The notes under the pieces: model-generated | The model's input: the letters and a program-made list of their open reading frames with translations, nothing else | What the model was told of the DNA's origin: nothing | The model's database searches: none | Translations under genes and position numbers: made by a program | Assembly: GCA_000002435.2 (NCBI GenBank) | Contig: CM018792.1 | Direction: 5' to 3' (one strand) | DNA length: 64,000 nt | From: Giardia intestinalis | Taxonomy: Eukaryota | Part shown: one piece after another, positions 1-22,511 of the stretch | Numbering within the stretch: position 1 is the first letter of the stretch | Layout: the number at the start of each line of letters is the position of its first letter

Positions 1-364
1 GTGTAGCGGCACCAACAAGCCCAACCTGGCTGGGAGCGGGTGCTTCGCATGTGCTGTTGAGGGATGCTCGCACTGCAATAGAGACAACATGTGCGAGAAG
101 TGTGATAACAACAAGAAGGTGAGCCCCGGGAGGAAGTCATGCGTGGATGGCTGTCCCAGCAACTCCACTGACACCGACTCTGTCTGTGTGTGCAACGATG
201 GATACAGCCCTGATGATGCTGGGGCCTCCTGTGTGTCCTCTGGCGCCAACAGGAGCGGGCTCTCCACGGGGGCCATAGCAGGGATCTCCGTCGCTGTCAT
301 CGCTGTCGTGGGGGGCCTCGTGGGCTTCTTGTGTTGGTGGTTCCTGTGTAGGGGGAAGGCATGA
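1..364 (+). CDS. VSP-like cysteine-rich surface protein, 3' fragment (5' end upstream of window)
   Basis: The frame is open from the window edge (codon phase starts at pos 2) to TGA 362-364. It translates ...CSGTNKPNLAGSGCFACAVEGCSHCNRD...[38 protein letters not shown]. It has a CXXC-rich ectodomain, an NRSG site, one TM helix and the invariant CRGKA tail, and is followed by the ACTTAGGTAGTGAAT box. Confidence 0.8.
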   Translation, partial: CSGTNKPNLAGSGCFACAVEGCSHCNRDNMCEKCDNNKKVSPGRKSCVDGCPSNSTDTDSVCVCNDGYSPDDAGASCVSSGANRSGLSTGAIAGISVAVIAVVGGLVGFLCWWFLCRGKA

Positions 365-378
365 CTTAGGTAGTGAAT
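364..378 (+). promoter_or_regulatory. extended VSP-type poly(A) signal ACTTAGGTAGTGAAT
   Basis: The box starts at the last base of the TGA stop. It fits the ACTYAGRTAGTRAAY pattern that, from memory of the Giardia literature, marks vsp 3' ends. Its ATG at 377 serves as the next unit's start. Confidence 0.7.
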
Positions 379-2364
379 GCTGTACAGTGATAGTGATAGT
401 GCTATGTGGTGTGGGGGTGATAGTGATAGTATGAGACTCCTCTTCATGGGCGGGTGCTACAAGACAGAGAGTCAGCCCGGCAGTGAGATATGCACAGCAG
501 CCAAGGATGGACTGTGCACTACTTGTAATACAGCTAACGGCCTGTTTAAGAACCCGGCTACAGCACCGAAGTCTGGTAGTGAGTGCATCCTCTGCTGGGA
601 CACGGTGGGAGATGGCGCGACGAAGGGAGTCGAGGGCTGTGCCACATGTACAGCACCAGCTAATAATAAGGGGGCTGCCACGTGTACTAAGTGCCAAGAT
701 GGATACTATAAGAACGCTCAGACATGTGTCAAATGTAATGAAGCTTGTCTGACCTGCGATGGAAGTGGCCAGAATGCGTGCACATCGTGCCCAGAGGGGA
801 AGTATTTGAAGACTGATAGTAAGACTTGTGTAGAGGCGTCTGCCTGTGCAAAGGGCACCTATGCCGACGAAGCAACCAGAAAGTGCGAATCCTGTACCGC
901 AGGCTCAGGTGCCGGCGGTACGGCAGGAGTGCAAGAATGCGCTGCGTGTGCATATAATAAGGCCAGCGGAAAACTGGAATGCTCTGAATGTACCGGCGGA
1001 GCCAAGATCCCCAGGGTGTCTTTGGATGGTACCTCGACCTGCGTGGCGAAGGACTACGCCGGGTGTGCCGGACAAGACAACGCTTTGTTTATAGTAGAGG
1101 ACAAGTCCAAATGCCTTTTGTGCGACGACGTTGAAACGGGGACAGATCCGAAGGATCAGGGCGTCGCCGGCTGTAAGGCTTGCACGAAGACCTCGAGTGC
1201 AAAGCCCACTTGCACAGAATGCTTGGAGGGATACAAAAGTACCGGAGTTGGTTCAGTAACATGCACCCCCTGTCACGCCAACTGTGCCACATGCTCAGCT
1301 GAAACTGCTGAGGATAAGTGCCTGACCTGCAAAGCAGGGTTCTTTCTAGTTGATGTTACGGGTGGGAAGAAGTGTGTCCCATGTGATAGCAAAACCGATA
1401 ATGGCATCGATGGGTGTGCCGAGTGTGATAACAGTACTGGATCCCTCAAGTGTACAAAGTGCAAGGTGAACTACAAGCAGAGCGGTACCGGTCCTGTTAC
1501 ATGTACCAAGACTTGTGAAGATGAGACTGCATGCGGGGGTACCTCTGGCGCCTGTGATGCCATCGTAATAGATGATAAGGGCAACACAAAGCACTACTGT
1601 TCATACTGTGGGGATGACAGTAAGGTACCGATTGATGGGAAGTGTGTTGATAGTGGTAGTATAAATGGTAATACTTGTGCTAAAGGTGTATGTACACAGT
1701 GTGCTCAAGGATACTTCTTATACATGGGAGGCTGTTATAAGGTAGCAAGTCCACCTGGTAACCTCATGTGCACTGAAGCAACAACAGCTGGTGTCTGCAC
1801 AGAGGCGGCCAACAATAAGTACTTCGTAGTACCAGGAGCATCCAATCAGAATCAGTCTGTATTGGCATGTGGTAACCCATTAGGCACACTAGTAGGCACT
1901 CAAGGTACTGCTAAGGCATACGTGGGGGTACTCAACTGTTCACAGTGCACAGCCCCAGCAGCTCTGTCTGATGGTGGTATGGCTGCTGCTATATGTACCT
2001 CCTGTGACAGTGATAGGAAGCCCAACAGGGATGGCAGTGGGTGCTTCGCATGTGCCGTTAGTGGATGCTCGCACTGCAACAGGGATGACATGTGCGAGGC
2101 ATGTAATGATGGTAAGAAGGTGAGCCCTGGGAGGAAGTCATGCGTGGATAAGTGTCCCAGCAACTCCACTGACACCGACTCTGTCTGTGTGTGCGACGAT
2201 GGATATAGCCCTGACAGCAGTGGGACCTCCTGTGTGTCTATGAGCACCAACAGGAGCGGGCTCTCCACGGGGGCCATCGCGGGCATCTCCGTCGCTGTCA
2301 TCGCTGTCGTGGGGGTCTCATAGGGTTCCTCTGCTGGTGGTTCCTGTGTAGAGGGAAGGCGTGA
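377..2364 (+). pseudogene. VSP-like unit 1, frame-shifted by a 1-nt deletion in a G-run (intact length would be 662 aa)
   Basis: An ATG at 377 (embedded in the upstream poly(A) box) opens a frame that terminates at TAG 2321-2323 (...AVIAVVGVS*). The near-identical copy at 20523..22511 has gtcgtggggggtctc where this copy has gtcgtgggggtctc at 2307-2320 (G6 against G5). The +1 frame 2323-2364 still encodes GFLCWWFLCRGKA* followed by the poly(A) box. This is either a pseudogene or a homopolymer sequencing error. Confidence 0.65.
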
Positions 2365-20510: not shown

Positions 20511-20524
20511 CTTAGGTAGTGAAT
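20510..20524 (+). promoter_or_regulatory. extended VSP-type poly(A) signal ACTTAGGTAGTGAAT
   Basis: The box overlaps the last base of the unit 10 TGA stop. Its ATG at 20523 starts unit 11. Confidence 0.65.
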
Positions 20525-22511
20525 GCTGTACAGTGATAGTGATAGTGCTATGTGGTGTGGGGGTGATAGTGGTGGTGTGGGACTTCTCTTCATGGGCGGG
20601 TGCTACAAGACAGAGAGTCAGCCCGGCAGTGAGATATGCACAGCAGCCAAGGATGGACTGTGCACTACTTGTAATACAGCTAACGGCCTGTTTAAGAACC
20701 CGGCTACAGCACCGAAGTCTGGTAGTGAGTGCATCCTCTGCTGGGACACGGTGGGAGATGGCGCGACGAAGGGAGTCGAGGGCTGTGCCACATGTACAGC
20801 ACCAGCTAATAATAAGGGGGCTGCCACGTGTACTAAGTGCCAAGATGGATACTATAAGAACGCTCAGACATGTGTCAAATGTAATGAAGCTTGTCTGACC
20901 TGCGATGGAAGTGGCCAGAATGCGTGCACATCGTGCCCAGAGGGGAAGTATTTGAAGACTGATAGTAAGACTTGTGTAGAGGCGTCTGCCTGTGCAAAGG
21001 GCACCTATGCCGACGAAGCAACCAGAAAGTGCGAATCCTGTACCGCAGGCTCAGGTGCCGGCGGTACGGCAGGAGTGCAAGAATGCGCTGCGTGTGCATA
21101 TAATAAGGCCAGCGGAAAACTGGAATGCTCTGAATGTACCGGCGGAGCCAAGATCCCCAGGGTGTCTTTGGATGGTACCTCGACCTGCGTGGCGAAGGAC
21201 TACGCCGGGTGTGCCGGACAAGACAACGCTTTGTTTATAGTAGAGGACAAGTCCAAATGCCTTTTGTGCGACGACGTTGAAACGGGGACAGATCCGAAGG
21301 ATCAGGGCGTCGCCGGCTGTAAGGCTTGCACGAAGACCTCGAGTGCAAAGCCCACTTGCACAGAATGCTTGGAGGGATACAAAAGTACCGGAGTTGGTTC
21401 AGTAACATGCACCCCCTGTCACGCCAACTGTGCCACATGCTCAGCTGAAACTGCTGAGGATAAGTGCCTGACCTGCAAAGCAGGGTTCTTTCTAGTTGAT
21501 GTTACGGGTGGGAAGAAGTGTGTCCCATGTGATAGCAAAACCGATAATGGCATCGATGGGTGTGCCGAGTGTGATAACAGTACTGGATCCCTCAAGTGTA
21601 CAAAGTGCAAGGTGAACTACAAGCAGAGCGGTACCGGTCCTGTTACATGTACCAAGACTTGTGAAGATGAGACTGCATGCGGGGGTACCTCTGGCGCCTG
21701 TGATGCCATCGTAATAGATGATAAGGGCAACACAAAGCACTACTGTTCATACTGTGGGGATGACAGTAAGGTACCGATTGATGGGAAGTGTGTTGATAGT
21801 GGTAGTATAAATGGTAATACTTGTGCTAAAGGTGTATGTACACAGTGTGCTCAAGGATACTTCTTATACATGGGAGGCTGTTATAAGGTAGCAAGTCCAC
21901 CTGGTAACCTCATGTGCACTGAAGCAACAACAGCTGGTGTCTGCACAGAGGCGGCCAACAATAAGTACTTCGTAGTACCAGGAGCATCCAATCAGAATCA
22001 GTCTGTATTGGCATGTGGTAACCCATTAGGCACACTAGTAGGCACTCAAGGTACTGCTAAGGCATACGTGGGGGTACTCAACTGTTCACAGTGCACAGCC
22101 CCAGCAGCTCTGTCTGATGGTGGTATGGCTGCTGCTATATGTACCTCCTGTGACAGTGATAGGAAGCCCAACAGGGATGGCAGTGGGTGCTTCGCATGTG
22201 CCGTTAGTGGATGCTCGCACTGCAACAGGGATGACATGTGCGAGGCATGTAATGATGGTAAGAAGGTGAGCCCTGGGAGGAAGTCATGCGTGGATAAGTG
22301 TCCCAGCAACTCCACTGACACCGACTCTGTCTGTGTGTGCGACGATGGATATAGCCCTGACAGCAGTGGGACCTCCTGTGTGTCTATGAGCACCAACAGG
22401 AGCGGGCTCTCCACGGGGGCCATCGCGGGCATCTCCGTCGCTGTCATCGCTGTCGTGGGGGGTCTCATAGGGTTCCTCTGCTGGTGGTTCCTGTGTAGAG
22501 GGAAGGCGTGA
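20523..22511 (+). CDS. VSP-like cysteine-rich surface protein unit 11 (662 aa; ATG inside the preceding poly(A) box)
   Basis: ATG 20523 lies within the upstream AGTGAATGCT box and the frame runs to TGA 22509-22511. The translation reads MLYSDSDSAMWCGGDSGGVGLLFMGGCYKTESQPGSEICTAAKDGLCTTC...[38 protein letters not shown]. It is an intact twin of unit 1 at an offset of 20146 bp and is the last unit of the array. Confidence 0.8.
   Translation: MLYSDSDSAMWCGGDSGGVGLLFMGGCYKTESQPGSEICTAAKDGLCTTCNTANGLFKNPATAPKSGSECILCWDTVGDGATKGVEGCATCTAPANNKGAATCTKCQDGYYKNAQTCVKCNEACLTCDGSGQNACTSCPEGKYLKTDSKTCVEASACAKGTYADEATRKCESCTAGSGAGGTAGVQECAACAYNKASGKLECSECTGGAKIPRVSLDGTSTCVAKDYAGCAGQDNALFIVEDKSKCLLCDDVETGTDPKDQGVAGCKACTKTSSAKPTCTECLEGYKSTGVGSVTCTPCHANCATCSAETAEDKCLTCKAGFFLVDVTGGKKCVPCDSKTDNGIDGCAECDNSTGSLKCTKCKVNYKQSGTGPVTCTKTCEDETACGGTSGACDAIVIDDKGNTKHYCSYCGDDSKVPIDGKCVDSGSINGNTCAKGVCTQCAQGYFLYMGGCYKVASPPGNLMCTEATTAGVCTEAANNKYFVVPGASNQNQSVLACGNPLGTLVGTQGTAKAYVGVLNCSQCTAPAALSDGGMAAAICTSCDSDRKPNRDGSGCFACAVSGCSHCNRDDMCEACNDGKKVSPGRKSCVDKCPSNSTDTDSVCVCDDGYSPDSSGTSCVSMSTNRSGLSTGAIAGISVAVIAVVGGLIGFLCWWFLCRGKA

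What the first reader, a model, noticed from the sequence alone, without database searches (positions are those of the whole stretch)
1..22511. Patchwork mosaic structure of the array, pointing to recurrent gene conversion or unequal crossing-over
Blocks of 0.3 to 2.1 kb are nucleotide-identical or nearly so between otherwise different units, in different combinations. (a) 241-2364 matches 20387-22511 at an offset of 20146 bp (units 1 and 11). (b) 1-240 matches 12876-13115 (unit 6 tail), so the first partial unit is a unit 6/unit 10 chimera. (c) 13662-15071 matches 19101-20510 (unit 7 body and unit 10 body). (d) 2365-2850 matches 15072-15557, and 18709-19050 matches the same spacer plus 5' block (units 2, 8 and 10). 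(e) 7329-7690 matches 16199-16560 (units 4 and 8). (f) 9151-9507 matches 17964-18319 (units 5 and 9). (g) 1941-2266 matches 5753-6078 and 22087-22412 (units 1, 3 and 11). Breakpoints fall inside coding sequence and preserve the frame. The result is combinatorial diversity of surface-protein ectodomains generated at the DNA level within a single locus.
Basis: seen in the sequence. Interest (0 to 1): 0.75.

Follow-up and report, generated by a model that had tools for sequence, protein, structure and literature searches.

The report
Giardia silent VSP cassette array mosaic
This is the published longest tandem array of silent surface-antigen (VSP) gene cassettes on chromosome 4 of Giardia lamblia WB; its units really are patchworks made by gene conversion between copies, but the array and its recombination were described in 2010.

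Summary
Positions 1-22511 hold one partial and 11 complete head-to-tail Giardia VSP units. The units are 64-75% identical overall. They carry about 40 pair-specific blocks of 100-1940 bp at 93-100% identity, in different combinations. Eight unit pairs exceed every one of 1000 site permutations.

The window is Giardia intestinalis WB C6. The array is the "longest linear array" (vsp56-65) of Adam et al. 2010. That paper already reported the closest pairs (vsp61/64 at 94% with long 100% stretches), GENECONV evidence of vsp recombination, and the silent-cassette hypothesis.

No unit has a signal peptide or an Inr, and most lack a start codon. So these are pseudo-VSP cassettes, not a set of expressed ectodomains. 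All 11 frames are still open once two homopolymer indels are repaired. In the diverged parts dN/dS is about 0.27 and 97% of cysteines are kept.

Patches flanked by diverged sequence on both sides point to gene conversion, not unequal crossing-over alone. Exchange is not confined to this locus. A second array holds near-identical cassettes, and signal-peptide-bearing VSPs elsewhere share patches.

Verdict: confirmed, mechanistically ordinary, already known.

The parts
1..364 (+). U0: 3' end of a VSP unit cut by the window edge. It is a chimera, identical to the U6 tail over 1-276 and identical to the U10 tail over 233-364.
365..2364 (+). U1: near-perfect copy of U11. 233-2377 matches 20379-22524 with 5 clustered substitutions at 426-439 and one G5/G6 homopolymer indel at 2310, which breaks the frame before the CRGKA tail.
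2365..4277 (+). U2 (vsp56 of Adam 2010, now complete): open frame of 619 codons, first ATG at 2994. The 5' head plus junction is shared with U8 and U10. Its 427-aa M-ORF is 423/427 identical to XP_001705784.1, encoded elsewhere.
4278..6177 (+). U3 (by position vsp57; its M-ORF is 559 aa against 641 in the 2010 table): open frame of 607 codons. The patch 5752-6098 is 99.7% identical to U11 and U1.
6178..8102 (+). U4 (vsp58; 340-aa M-ORF = XP_001707659.1 exactly): open frame of 623 codons. The internal patch 7317-7687 is 99.7% identical to U8, with flanks at 59-61%.
8103..11207 (+). U5 (vsp59; 887-aa M-ORF = XP_001707661.1 exactly): open frame of 1017 codons. The patch 9129-9568 is 98.9% identical to U9. 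The sister copy XP_001705785.1 is 93-100% identical outside aa 211-390 and 57-77% inside, which delimits a conversion tract.
11208..13235 (+). U6 (vsp60; 650 aa = XP_001707663.1 exactly). Its ATG lies in spacer-derived sequence and it has no signal peptide.
13236..15071 (+). U7 (vsp61): open frame of 583 codons, but the first ATG leaves only 183 aa. It is a chimera: 13416-13645 is 99.1% identical to U11/U1, and 13620-15019 is 98-99.5% identical to U10.
15072..16870 (+). U8 (vsp62; 389-aa M-ORF): head 15072-15516 matches U2/U10, 15576-15724 matches U9, and 16187-16557 matches U4.
16871..18708 (+). U9 (vsp63): frame broken by a C4/C5 homopolymer difference at 18315. Restoring one C gives exactly the published 518-aa ORF. 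The patch 17942-18380 matches U5.
18709..20510 (+). U10 (vsp64; 183-aa M-ORF inside a 582-codon open frame): head 18709-19092 matches U8/U2, and body 19059-20458 matches U7.
20511..22511 (+). U11 (vsp65; 662 aa = XP_001707667.1 exactly): the last unit of the array. The ATG at 20523 sits inside the preceding unit's poly(A) signal.
22512..22524 (+). Extended VSP polyadenylation signal CTTAGGTAGTGAA after the last unit. The same 13-mer follows all 12 stop codons: at 365, 2365, 4281, 6178, 8103, 11208, 13236, 15072, 16871, 18709, 20511 and 22512.
11232..11270 (+). Example of the inter-unit spacer repeat: the GGGTGATAGA decamer in 3-6 copies, rich in stop codons. Other runs lie at 4302-4363, 13262-13327 and 16906-16936. 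Shorter versions occur in every spacer.

Best explanation
Positions 1-22511 are the distal part of the longest 'linear array' of variant-specific surface protein genes on chromosome 4 of Giardia intestinalis WB (vsp56-65 of Adam et al. 2010, plus two more units that the long-read assembly joined on). Each unit is a VSP ectodomain plus TM/CRGKA tail plus extended poly(A) signal. Each unit begins, after a 50-110-nt stop-rich spacer, directly inside the ectodomain. It has no signal peptide, no initiator element and usually no start codon. These are silent pseudo-VSP cassettes.

The patchwork arises from repeated ectopic homologous recombination among these cassettes and with VSP sequences at other loci. 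The events are mostly short non-reciprocal conversion tracts of 100-1200 bp, laid in register and in frame onto old, diverged backbones (dS > 1). There is also at least one whole-cassette copy, U11 = U1. Its ends lie in the conserved 3' tail of the preceding unit and in its own poly(A) signal.

Shown: the anatomy, the mosaic and its significance, the identity of the locus, the lack of expression signals, the open frames, the signature of protein-level constraint, and patch sharing with other loci.

Inferred: that gene conversion is the molecular route; the donor-to-recipient polarity (U9-like into U5 is the parsimonious reading of the three-way comparison); and that the array serves as a reservoir from which expressed VSPs acquire new segments.
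For: Identity of the locus:
- Katanin p60 and four VSP ORFs match G. lamblia ATCC 50803 proteins exactly.
- ORF sizes of 340, 887, 650, 183, 389, 518 (after repair), 183 and 662 aa equal vsp58-65 in the 2010 table.
- U7/U10 are 94% identical, the figure published for vsp61/64.

VSP nature:
- PF03302 hits all five VSP ORFs scanned, U1, U3, U5, U6 and U11.
- There are 12 CRGKA tails.
- The units are 11.5-12.5% Cys and carry 24-44 CXXC motifs.

Silent cassettes:
- There are 0 PyAATGTT motifs on either strand of 1-24000.
- Open frames begin in the ectodomain. The SP-bearing VSPs start MFQLIPLFVASALMAAC... whereas the units do not.

Mosaic:
- 40 high-identity blocks were found, with a painting map.
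- The permutation test has 8 pairs beyond all 1000 permutations.
- Patches are flanked by diverged sequence on both sides.
- A three-sequence tract was delimited: U5 versus XP_001705785.1 versus U9.

Age contrast:
- Blocks diverge by 0-1.4%, while backbone dS is 1.0-1.9.
- The orthologous flank between isolates WB (AI) and DH (AII) diverges by 2.5%.

Constraint:
- 11/11 frames are open after two homopolymer repairs.
- Median dN/dS is 0.27 and Cys conservation is 97% in the diverged parts.

Exchange beyond the locus.

Literature: PMC2996952 (linear arrays, GENECONV recombination, cassette hypothesis), PMC7000408 (pseudo-VSPs sit in arrays without start codons), PMC7641422 (segmental gene conversion in G. 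muris arrays, 'as previously demonstrated in G. intestinalis').
Against: - No direct observation of a conversion event: everything is inferred from one haploid-like consensus sequence.
- Absence of a signal peptide was judged by inspection and by alignment to SP-bearing VSPs, not with a predictor.
- Transcription status was not tested here.
- Low dN/dS and conserved cysteines could be imported passively by conversion from functional VSPs, rather than reflecting selection on the cassettes themselves.
- Block boundaries are not significantly enriched in locally conserved sequence (p = 0.11), so no recombination hotspot was demonstrated.
- DNA of the other WB loci could not be fetched, so sharing between loci rests on protein-level identity.
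Confidence: 0.85

Rival explanations
1. Unequal crossing-over (sister-chromatid or homologue misalignment) alone generated the pattern. Each exchange creates one chimeric unit and changes copy number. Successive exchanges then shuffle 5' and 3' halves.
For: Several units are simple two-part chimeras with a single switch point. U0 is U6-like then U10-like. U10 has a U8/U2-like head and a U7-like body. Junction types (3' tail + spacer + 5' head) recur along the array. The U1 = U11 whole-cassette copy could be a duplication.
Against: Internal patches in U4/U8, U8/U9, U7/U11 and U5/U9 are bounded on both sides by much less similar sequence. This needs two exchanges in the same unit, that is, a conversion tract. 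The units are not homogenised (64-75% identity), unlike arrays dominated by unequal exchange. Patches are shared with genes on other contigs or chromosomes, where reciprocal crossing-over would rearrange chromosomes.
Confidence: 0.1
2. Assembly or polishing artefact: collapsed or cross-polished repeats in a long-read assembly created false identical blocks.
For: The window comes from a repeat-rich region that every short-read assembly fails to cross. Two homopolymer frameshifts (G5/G6 at 2310, C4/C5 at 18315) look like PacBio errors of the kind the assembly paper reports (PMC7000408).
Against: The 2007 Sanger-based protein models match U4, U5, U6 and U11 exactly, including the segments that form blocks e, f and g. 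The ORF lengths of eight units equal those tabulated in 2010 from Sanger and directed sequencing, U9 only after repair. The 94% vsp61/64 identity with long 100% stretches was published from independent data.
Confidence: 0.03
3. No recombination: whole-unit duplications followed by uneven divergence, with the identical blocks preserved by strong functional constraint.
For: The C-terminal ~150 nt (TM, CRGKA, poly(A) signal) is conserved in all units. Protein-level constraint exists: dN/dS is 0.27.
Against: The blocks are pair-specific, not conserved across all units at that position. Synonymous sites are also identical inside blocks, while dS exceeds 1 outside. Different segments of one unit have different nearest relatives, which a tree-like history cannot give.
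Confidence: 0.02

Closest known systems
Giardia lamblia WB vsp linear array vsp56-65, chromosome 4 (Adam et al. 2010, BMC Genomics 11:424, Fig. 4C; PMC2996952)
   Same: It is the same locus. Unit order and ORF sizes match (340, 887, 650, 183, 389, 518, 183, 662 aa). Four exact protein matches were found. The closest pairs are the same (vsp61/64 = U7/U10 at 94%; vsp60/65 = U6/U11). Both lack an Inr in the downstream members, and both have short spacers.
   Different: The window adds the units the 2010 contig lacked: a complete U2, plus U1 and U0. It shows that U1 is a copy of U11. The per-block map, the delimited tract in vsp59, the dN/dS values and the spacer decamer repeat are not in the parts of the paper I read. 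U3 (559 aa here, 641 there) and U9 (frameshifted here) differ between assemblies.
Pseudo-VSP arrays of Giardia muris (Xu et al. 2020, Microb Genom; PMC7641422)
   Same: Head-to-tail arrays of signal-peptide-less VSP cassettes. [quoted passage not shown] Proposed as a reservoir.
   Different: The G. muris arrays are almost all telomere-adjacent and carry GCRGK tails. This array abuts ordinary housekeeping genes (flavodiiron protein, katanin) and has CRGKA tails.
Silent-archive antigen systems that work by segmental gene conversion (Trypanosoma brucei mosaic VSGs; Anaplasma msp2 pseudogenes; Neisseria pilS). This comparison rests on my own knowledge plus PMC13233330 and PMC7641422.
   Same: Promoter-less, N-terminally truncated but open-reading cassettes. 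Conserved flanks that can guide recombination: here the 3' TM/CRGKA/poly(A) block and the spacer. In-frame patch transfer creates mosaics.
   Different: In Giardia, switching between VSPs is attributed to epigenetic/RNAi mechanisms, not to recombination into an expression site (PMC2996952 abstract). No expression site is known, and no conversion into an expressed VSP has been observed in real time. Works-like is plausible on evolutionary time. Membership is not established.
Concerted evolution of tandem arrays by unequal crossing-over (rDNA-type)
   Same: Tandem head-to-tail repeats with recombination between units.
   Different: The units are not homogenised (64-75% identity). Exchange is patchy and keeps diversity rather than erasing it.

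Membership tests
Giardia VSP family (Pfam PF03302) | Cysteine-rich ectodomain with many CXXC motifs | tested here: met
   11.5-12.5% Cys and 24-44 CXXC per unit. PF03302 E-values of 2.5e-24 to 1.4e-77.
Giardia VSP family (Pfam PF03302) | C-terminal transmembrane helix followed by the CRGKA cytoplasmic tail | tested here: met
   12 of 12 unit ends encode ...GFLCWWF(L/V/I)CRGKA*. In U1 and U9 the tail is out of frame by one homopolymer base.
Giardia VSP family (Pfam PF03302) | N-terminal signal peptide (required for a functional VSP in the 2020 and 2022 re-annotations) | tested here: not met
   Unit open frames begin in ectodomain sequence (e.g. ...SEICTAASDGLCTAC...). ORFs with an ATG start MLYSDSDSAMWCGG..., read from the spacer. 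SP-bearing VSPs begin MFQLIPLFVASALMAAC or MLLTAFYIVLGSFAAPC. This was judged by inspection and alignment; no SignalP run was available.
Giardia VSP family (Pfam PF03302) | Initiator element PyAATGTT at the start codon | tested here: not met
   0 matches on either strand of 1-24000. This agrees with Adam 2010, where no downstream array member has it.
Giardia VSP family (Pfam PF03302) | Extended polyadenylation signal directly after the stop codon | tested here: met
   CTTAGGTAGTGAA lies 0-3 nt after all 12 stop codons.
Pseudo-VSP linear array (Adam 2010; Xu 2020) | Two or more head-to-tail vsp units separated by very short spacers (average 60 bp, up to 241 bp) | tested here: met
   12 consecutive + strand units. 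Open frames resume 12-84 nt after the previous stop.
Pseudo-VSP linear array (Adam 2010; Xu 2020) | Members lack a proper start codon or signal peptide | tested here: met
   The first in-frame ATG lies 130-400 codons into the open frame in U2, U4, U5, U7, U8 and U10. No unit has a signal peptide.
Pseudo-VSP linear array (Adam 2010; Xu 2020) | Transcriptionally silent | not testable with these tools
   No expression data are accessible here. The G. muris arrays were reported as non-transcribed (PMC7641422).
Silent-donor / expression-site gene-conversion system (VSG, msp2, pilS type) | Silent truncated donor cassettes with conserved flanks | tested here: met
   The conserved 3' tail plus poly(A) signal plus spacer forms shared junction types.
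Silent-donor / expression-site gene-conversion system (VSG, msp2, pilS type) | Donor segments found in expression-competent genes | tested here: inconclusive
   The SP-bearing VSPs P0014, P0024 and P0026 share 50-110-aa patches at >=93% identity with single units, on 44-61% backgrounds. Direction and timing are unknown. The comparison is protein-level only, because the loci could not be fetched.
Silent-donor / expression-site gene-conversion system (VSG, msp2, pilS type) | Antigen switching during infection occurs by conversion into a dedicated expression site | not testable with these tools
   The literature attributes Giardia switching to epigenetic mechanisms (PMC2996952 abstract). No expression site is known.
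Concerted evolution by unequal crossing-over | Homogenisation of units across the array | tested here: not met
   Pairwise unit identity is 63-75%, except U1/U11 (about 100%) and U7/U10 (94%).

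The most novel reading that the evidence does not exclude
The signal-peptide-less cassettes may not be decaying junk. They could be a selectively maintained archive that feeds in-frame segments into expression-competent VSP genes. 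That would give Giardia a recombinational layer of antigen diversification, like mosaic VSGs, on top of its epigenetic/RNAi switching, acting on timescales shorter than the AI/AII split. Evidence consistent with this but not proving it:
- 11 of 11 frames are open after the two repairs.
- dN/dS is about 0.27, with 97% of cysteines conserved across backbones whose dS exceeds 1.
- Conversion blocks are younger (0-1.4% divergence) than the 2.5% inter-isolate flank divergence.
- Patches are shared with SP-bearing VSPs.
- The terminal cassette differs between WB and DH.
The idea itself was already proposed by Adam 2010 and Xu 2020. What would be new is a demonstration.
Probability: 0.3. Interest if true: 0.6.

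Novelty: already known. Interest (0 to 1): 0.25.

Why it matters
VSPs coat the Giardia trophozoite and underlie its antigenic variation. How the repertoire is generated and renewed bears on chronic infection and on VSP-based vaccines. This locus is a clean, fully resolved example of patchy in-frame gene conversion among silent cassettes. However, the array itself, the recombination signal and the reservoir hypothesis have been in the literature since 2010. The value here is confirmation plus some quantitative detail: a block map, a delimited tract with inferred polarity, and the constraint on cassette frames. It is not a discovery.

Tried and rejected
- Fetching the array from other isolates through the flanking katanin gene failed. 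Every short-read assembly ends at or within 430 bp of the array edge. Only the DH edge could be compared.
- Fetching the DNA of the WB loci encoding P0014, P0024 and P0026 failed: there is no record in the contig index. The U11 protein is also not indexed. Comparison between loci therefore stayed at protein level.
- P0016 turned out to be a solitary VSP in another assembly, not an array.
- I tested whether block boundaries sit in locally conserved islands that could act as recombination hotspots. The result was 0.68 at boundaries against 0.64 at random, p = 0.11, which is not significant.
- tblastn with PAM30 to paint outside VSPs onto the array returned almost nothing useful. It was replaced by exact-run and sliding-window identity.
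- I considered and rejected three alternatives: a bacterial origin (the ORF tool uses table 11, but the proteins are Giardia); concerted evolution (the units are too diverged); and an assembly artefact (the Sanger models agree).
- One literature search was malformed.

Full report
WHAT THE WINDOW IS

The ORF at 24944-26890 is identical to katanin p60 of Giardia intestinalis WB clone C6 (XP_001707673.1 / KAE8304147.1). The VSP ORFs 11283-13235 and 20523-22511 are identical to XP_001707663.1 and XP_001707667.1. ORFs 7080-8102 and 8544-11207 are identical to XP_001707659.1 and XP_001707661.1. All five array ORFs that were scanned match Pfam PF03302, 'Giardia variant-specific surface protein'. The + strand carries 12 ...CRGKA* tails, with stops ending at 364, 2364, 4277, 6177, 8102, 11207, 13235, 15071, 16870, 18708, 20510 and 22511. 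The window therefore opens inside a unit (U0) and then holds 11 complete units, U1-U11. No further VSP tail occurs on either strand in the rest of the window. Downstream lie ordinary genes: a flavodiiron-type protein, katanin, DEAD-box helicases, a phosphodiesterase and a kinase. The array is richer in G+C (50-54%) and has a stronger G-over-C skew than the flank (42-50%).

CHECKING THE OBSERVATION

Block a reaches 99.9% when one 1-nt gap is allowed. Block b fails at the stated register. The true match is 1-328 with 12872-13199, at 98.8% and with no gap. U0 is identical to the U6 tail over 1-276 and to the U10 tail over 233-364. It really is a chimera, with the switch inside the 44 nt shared by all three.

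A stringent self-BLAST lists 40 blocks of at least 100 bp at 93-100% identity. A MAFFT alignment of the units gives 63-75% background identity, except U1/U11 (about 100%) and U7/U10 (94%). A 100-nt sliding 'painting' shows that different segments of one unit have different nearest relatives:
- U7 is U11-like over 13416-13645 and U10-like over 13620-15019.
- U10 has a U8/U2-like head (18709-19092) and a U7-like body.
- U8 is U2/U10-like, then U9-like, then U4-like.

In a GENECONV-type permutation of 1099 polymorphic sites, with U1 excluded, eight pairs have runs of 122-393 concordant sites. The largest run in any of 1000 permutations was 103. Internal patches of 98-100% identity are bounded on both sides by less similar sequence, mostly 47-76%. 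Block offsets relative to the stop codons are all multiples of three, once two single-base homopolymer differences are allowed for.

IS IT AN ARTEFACT?

No. The four exact matches to the 2007 Sanger-based protein set cover U4, U5, U6 and U11, including their sides of blocks e, f and g. The first-ATG ORF lengths of U4-U8, U10 and U11 are 340, 887, 650, 183, 389, 183 and 662 aa. These equal vsp58-62, 64 and 65 in Additional file 1 of Adam et al. 2010.

U9 gives the published 518 aa (vsp63) only after one C is restored in a C4/C5 run at 18315. U1 differs from U11 by a G5/G6 run at 2310. The paper describing the PacBio reference notes exactly such homopolymer frameshifts (PMC7000408). I regard both as probable assembly errors, not real pseudogenising mutations.

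WHAT THE UNITS ARE

After each stop codon comes the extended VSP poly(A) signal CTTAGGTAGTGAA, present 12 times out of 12. A spacer follows, built from 3-6 imperfect GGGTGATAGA decamers that are full of stop codons. An open frame then runs 581-1017 codons to the next CRGKA stop.

That frame begins inside ectodomain sequence. There is no signal peptide: compare the MFQLIPLFVASALMAAC... starts of complete VSPs. There is no PyAATGTT initiator anywhere in 1-24000. In U2, U4, U5, U7, U8 and U10 the first ATG lies 130-400 codons in. The 'complete' 650-662-aa ORFs of U1, U6 and U11 start at an ATG formed by the previous unit's AGTGAATG poly(A) signal, or in the spacer, and read MLYSDSDS... from the spacer repeat.

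The cassettes are nevertheless not decaying freely. All 11 frames are open after the two repairs. Cysteine content and CXXC counts are VSP-like. In the diverged parts of 45 unit pairs, dS is 0.6-2.0 while dN/dS is 0.20-0.41 (median 0.27). Of aligned cysteines, 97% are conserved.

MECHANISM

Patches with diverged sequence on both sides require two exchanges within one unit, which means gene-conversion tracts. Single unequal crossovers can explain only the two-part chimeras (U0, U10) and perhaps the cassette copy.

The clearest tract is in U5. Its sister copy XP_001705785.1 (vsp112, listed on chromosome 5 in 2010) is 93-100% identical over aa 1-210 and 87-100% over aa 391-887, but 57-77% over aa 211-390. 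There U5 is 100% identical to U9 over aa 211-330. The parsimonious reading is a transfer of at least 440 bp, U9-like into U5, after the U5/vsp112 duplication. This is an inference. The alternative needs two events.

The U1 = U11 copy spans 233-2377 and 20379-22524. It runs from 132 nt before the preceding stop to 13 nt after its own stop. Both ends therefore lie in the conserved tail and poly(A) element. It has 0 substitutions in 1938 nt apart from a cluster of five at 426-439 in the spacer-derived start.

Junction segments (3' tail + spacer + 5' head) fall into recurrent types:
- after U1, U3, U7 and U9;
- after U4, U6 and U8;
- after U0 and U10.
These types are uncoupled from the unit bodies. 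I could not show that block ends prefer locally conserved sequence (p = 0.11).

TIMING AND SCOPE

Blocks differ by 0-1.4%. The orthologous single-copy flank differs by 2.5% between WB (assemblage AI) and DH (AII). Identity drops abruptly to 82% on entering the last VSP unit, and no WB unit in the window matches the DH tail above 87%. So many events look younger than the AI/AII split, and the array content at this position differs between isolates. One caveat applies: the DH contig ends there.

Exchange is not limited to this locus:
- XP_001705784.1 is 423/427 identical to the U2 ORF.
- vsp112 is the U5 sister.
- The signal-peptide-bearing WB VSPs P0014, P0024 and P0026 carry 50-110-aa patches at >=93% identity to single units, on 44-61% backgrounds.
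- In P0014 a U5/U9-type run (aa 461-491) abuts a U1/U11-type run (aa 492-531).

COMPARISON WITH WHAT IS KNOWN

Adam et al. 2010 (PMC2996952) made the following points:
- They described this very array, the longest, on chromosome 4 (vsp57-65 in Fig. 4C), ending a contig next to another contig with two more vsp genes.
- They noted that downstream members lack the Inr.
- They reported GENECONV and DualBrothers evidence of recombination among vsp genes.
- They proposed that array members are non-expressed cassettes for recombination, or else discarded remnants.

Xu et al. 2020 found the same architecture in G. muris. [quoted passage not shown] A 2025 population study finds VSPs enriched among gene-conversion tracts (PMC12669663).

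The additions here are:
- the completed left part of the array (U0-U2) and the U1 = U11 copy;
- a block-by-block map;
- a delimited tract with probable polarity;
- the frame and constraint statistics;
- the spacer decamer;
- the two probable homopolymer errors.

VERDICT

The units are silent cassettes rather than expressed ectodomains, and the exchange network extends beyond this locus. Novelty: already known. Interest: low to moderate.

Noticed in passing
window 2310 (U1) and 18315 (U9): The only frame-breaking differences in the array are single-base length changes in homopolymers: G5 versus G6 relative to U11, and C4 versus C5 relative to U5. Restoring the C in U9 reproduces exactly the 518-aa vsp63 ORF tabulated in 2010. 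These are probably PacBio consensus errors in a region where short reads cannot polish.
   Followed up: yes
window spacers, e.g. 4302-4363, 11232-11270, 13262-13327, 16906-16936: Every inter-unit spacer is built from a variable number (about 2-6) of imperfect GGGTGATAGA decamers carrying TGA/TAG/TAA. They lie directly after the extended poly(A) signal. They could act as translational insulators or as recombination-prone microsatellite-like sequence. I did not find this repeat mentioned in the sections of the papers I read.
   Followed up: partly
window 20523 (also 377 and 11283): The ATG of the 'complete' 650-662-aa VSP models is created by the previous unit's poly(A) signal (AGTGAATG) or lies in the spacer. 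The first ~20 residues (MLYSDSDSAMWCGGDSDS...) are translated spacer repeat, not a signal peptide. Two other old WB models (XP_001703902.1, XP_001705183.1) start with the same string, so similar junctions exist in other arrays.
   Followed up: partly
L002 (DH isolate, AHGT01000001.1) 1-3000 versus window 22085-25084: The DH contig is 97.5% identical to WB in the unique flank but only 82% in the last 427 bp of the terminal VSP unit. Its tail is closest to the U0/U6 tails (84-87%). The array edge is syntenic but its content differs between assemblages AI and AII.
   Followed up: partly
proteins XP_001705783.1-785.1 (P0035, P0114, P0134), encoded outside the window: A second array (vsp110-112, chromosome 5 in the 2010 table) has a 427-aa unit 99% identical to U2, directly followed by an 887-aa unit 91% identical to U5. 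In this window U2 and U5 are separated by U3 and U4. Whole cassettes have therefore moved or been copied between arrays.
   Followed up: partly
window 4498-4611 (start of the U3 M-ORF): UniProt Q8I8W2, 'Variant-specific surface protein S7' (P0031, 539 aa, no signal peptide), is identical to U3 over its first 38 residues. It also shares 44-47-aa exact runs with U4/U8 and with the U6/U8 tails. If S7 derives from a cDNA, some array-type units may be transcribed.
   Followed up: no
window 1-22511, minus strand: Many long antisense ORFs (150-280 aa, e.g. 22046-22888, 12770-13522, 3786-4553) run through the units. They are most likely a by-product of the biased codon composition and strong G-over-C skew (+0.12 to +0.18) of VSP coding sequence.
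   Followed up: no
window 7317-9568 versus 16187-18380: Three collinear high-identity blocks (U4 patch, U4/U5 junction, U5 patch) match U8, the U8/U9 junction and U9 at nearly the same offset (8768-8870 bp). This suggests either an old two-unit duplication later overwritten in between, or one long discontinuous conversion tract.
   Followed up: no
window 26811-32567 (-) and 34613-38425 (+): Two very long ORFs (1918 and 1270 aa) next to the array have no Pfam match. They are probably Giardia-specific hypothetical proteins.
   Followed up: no
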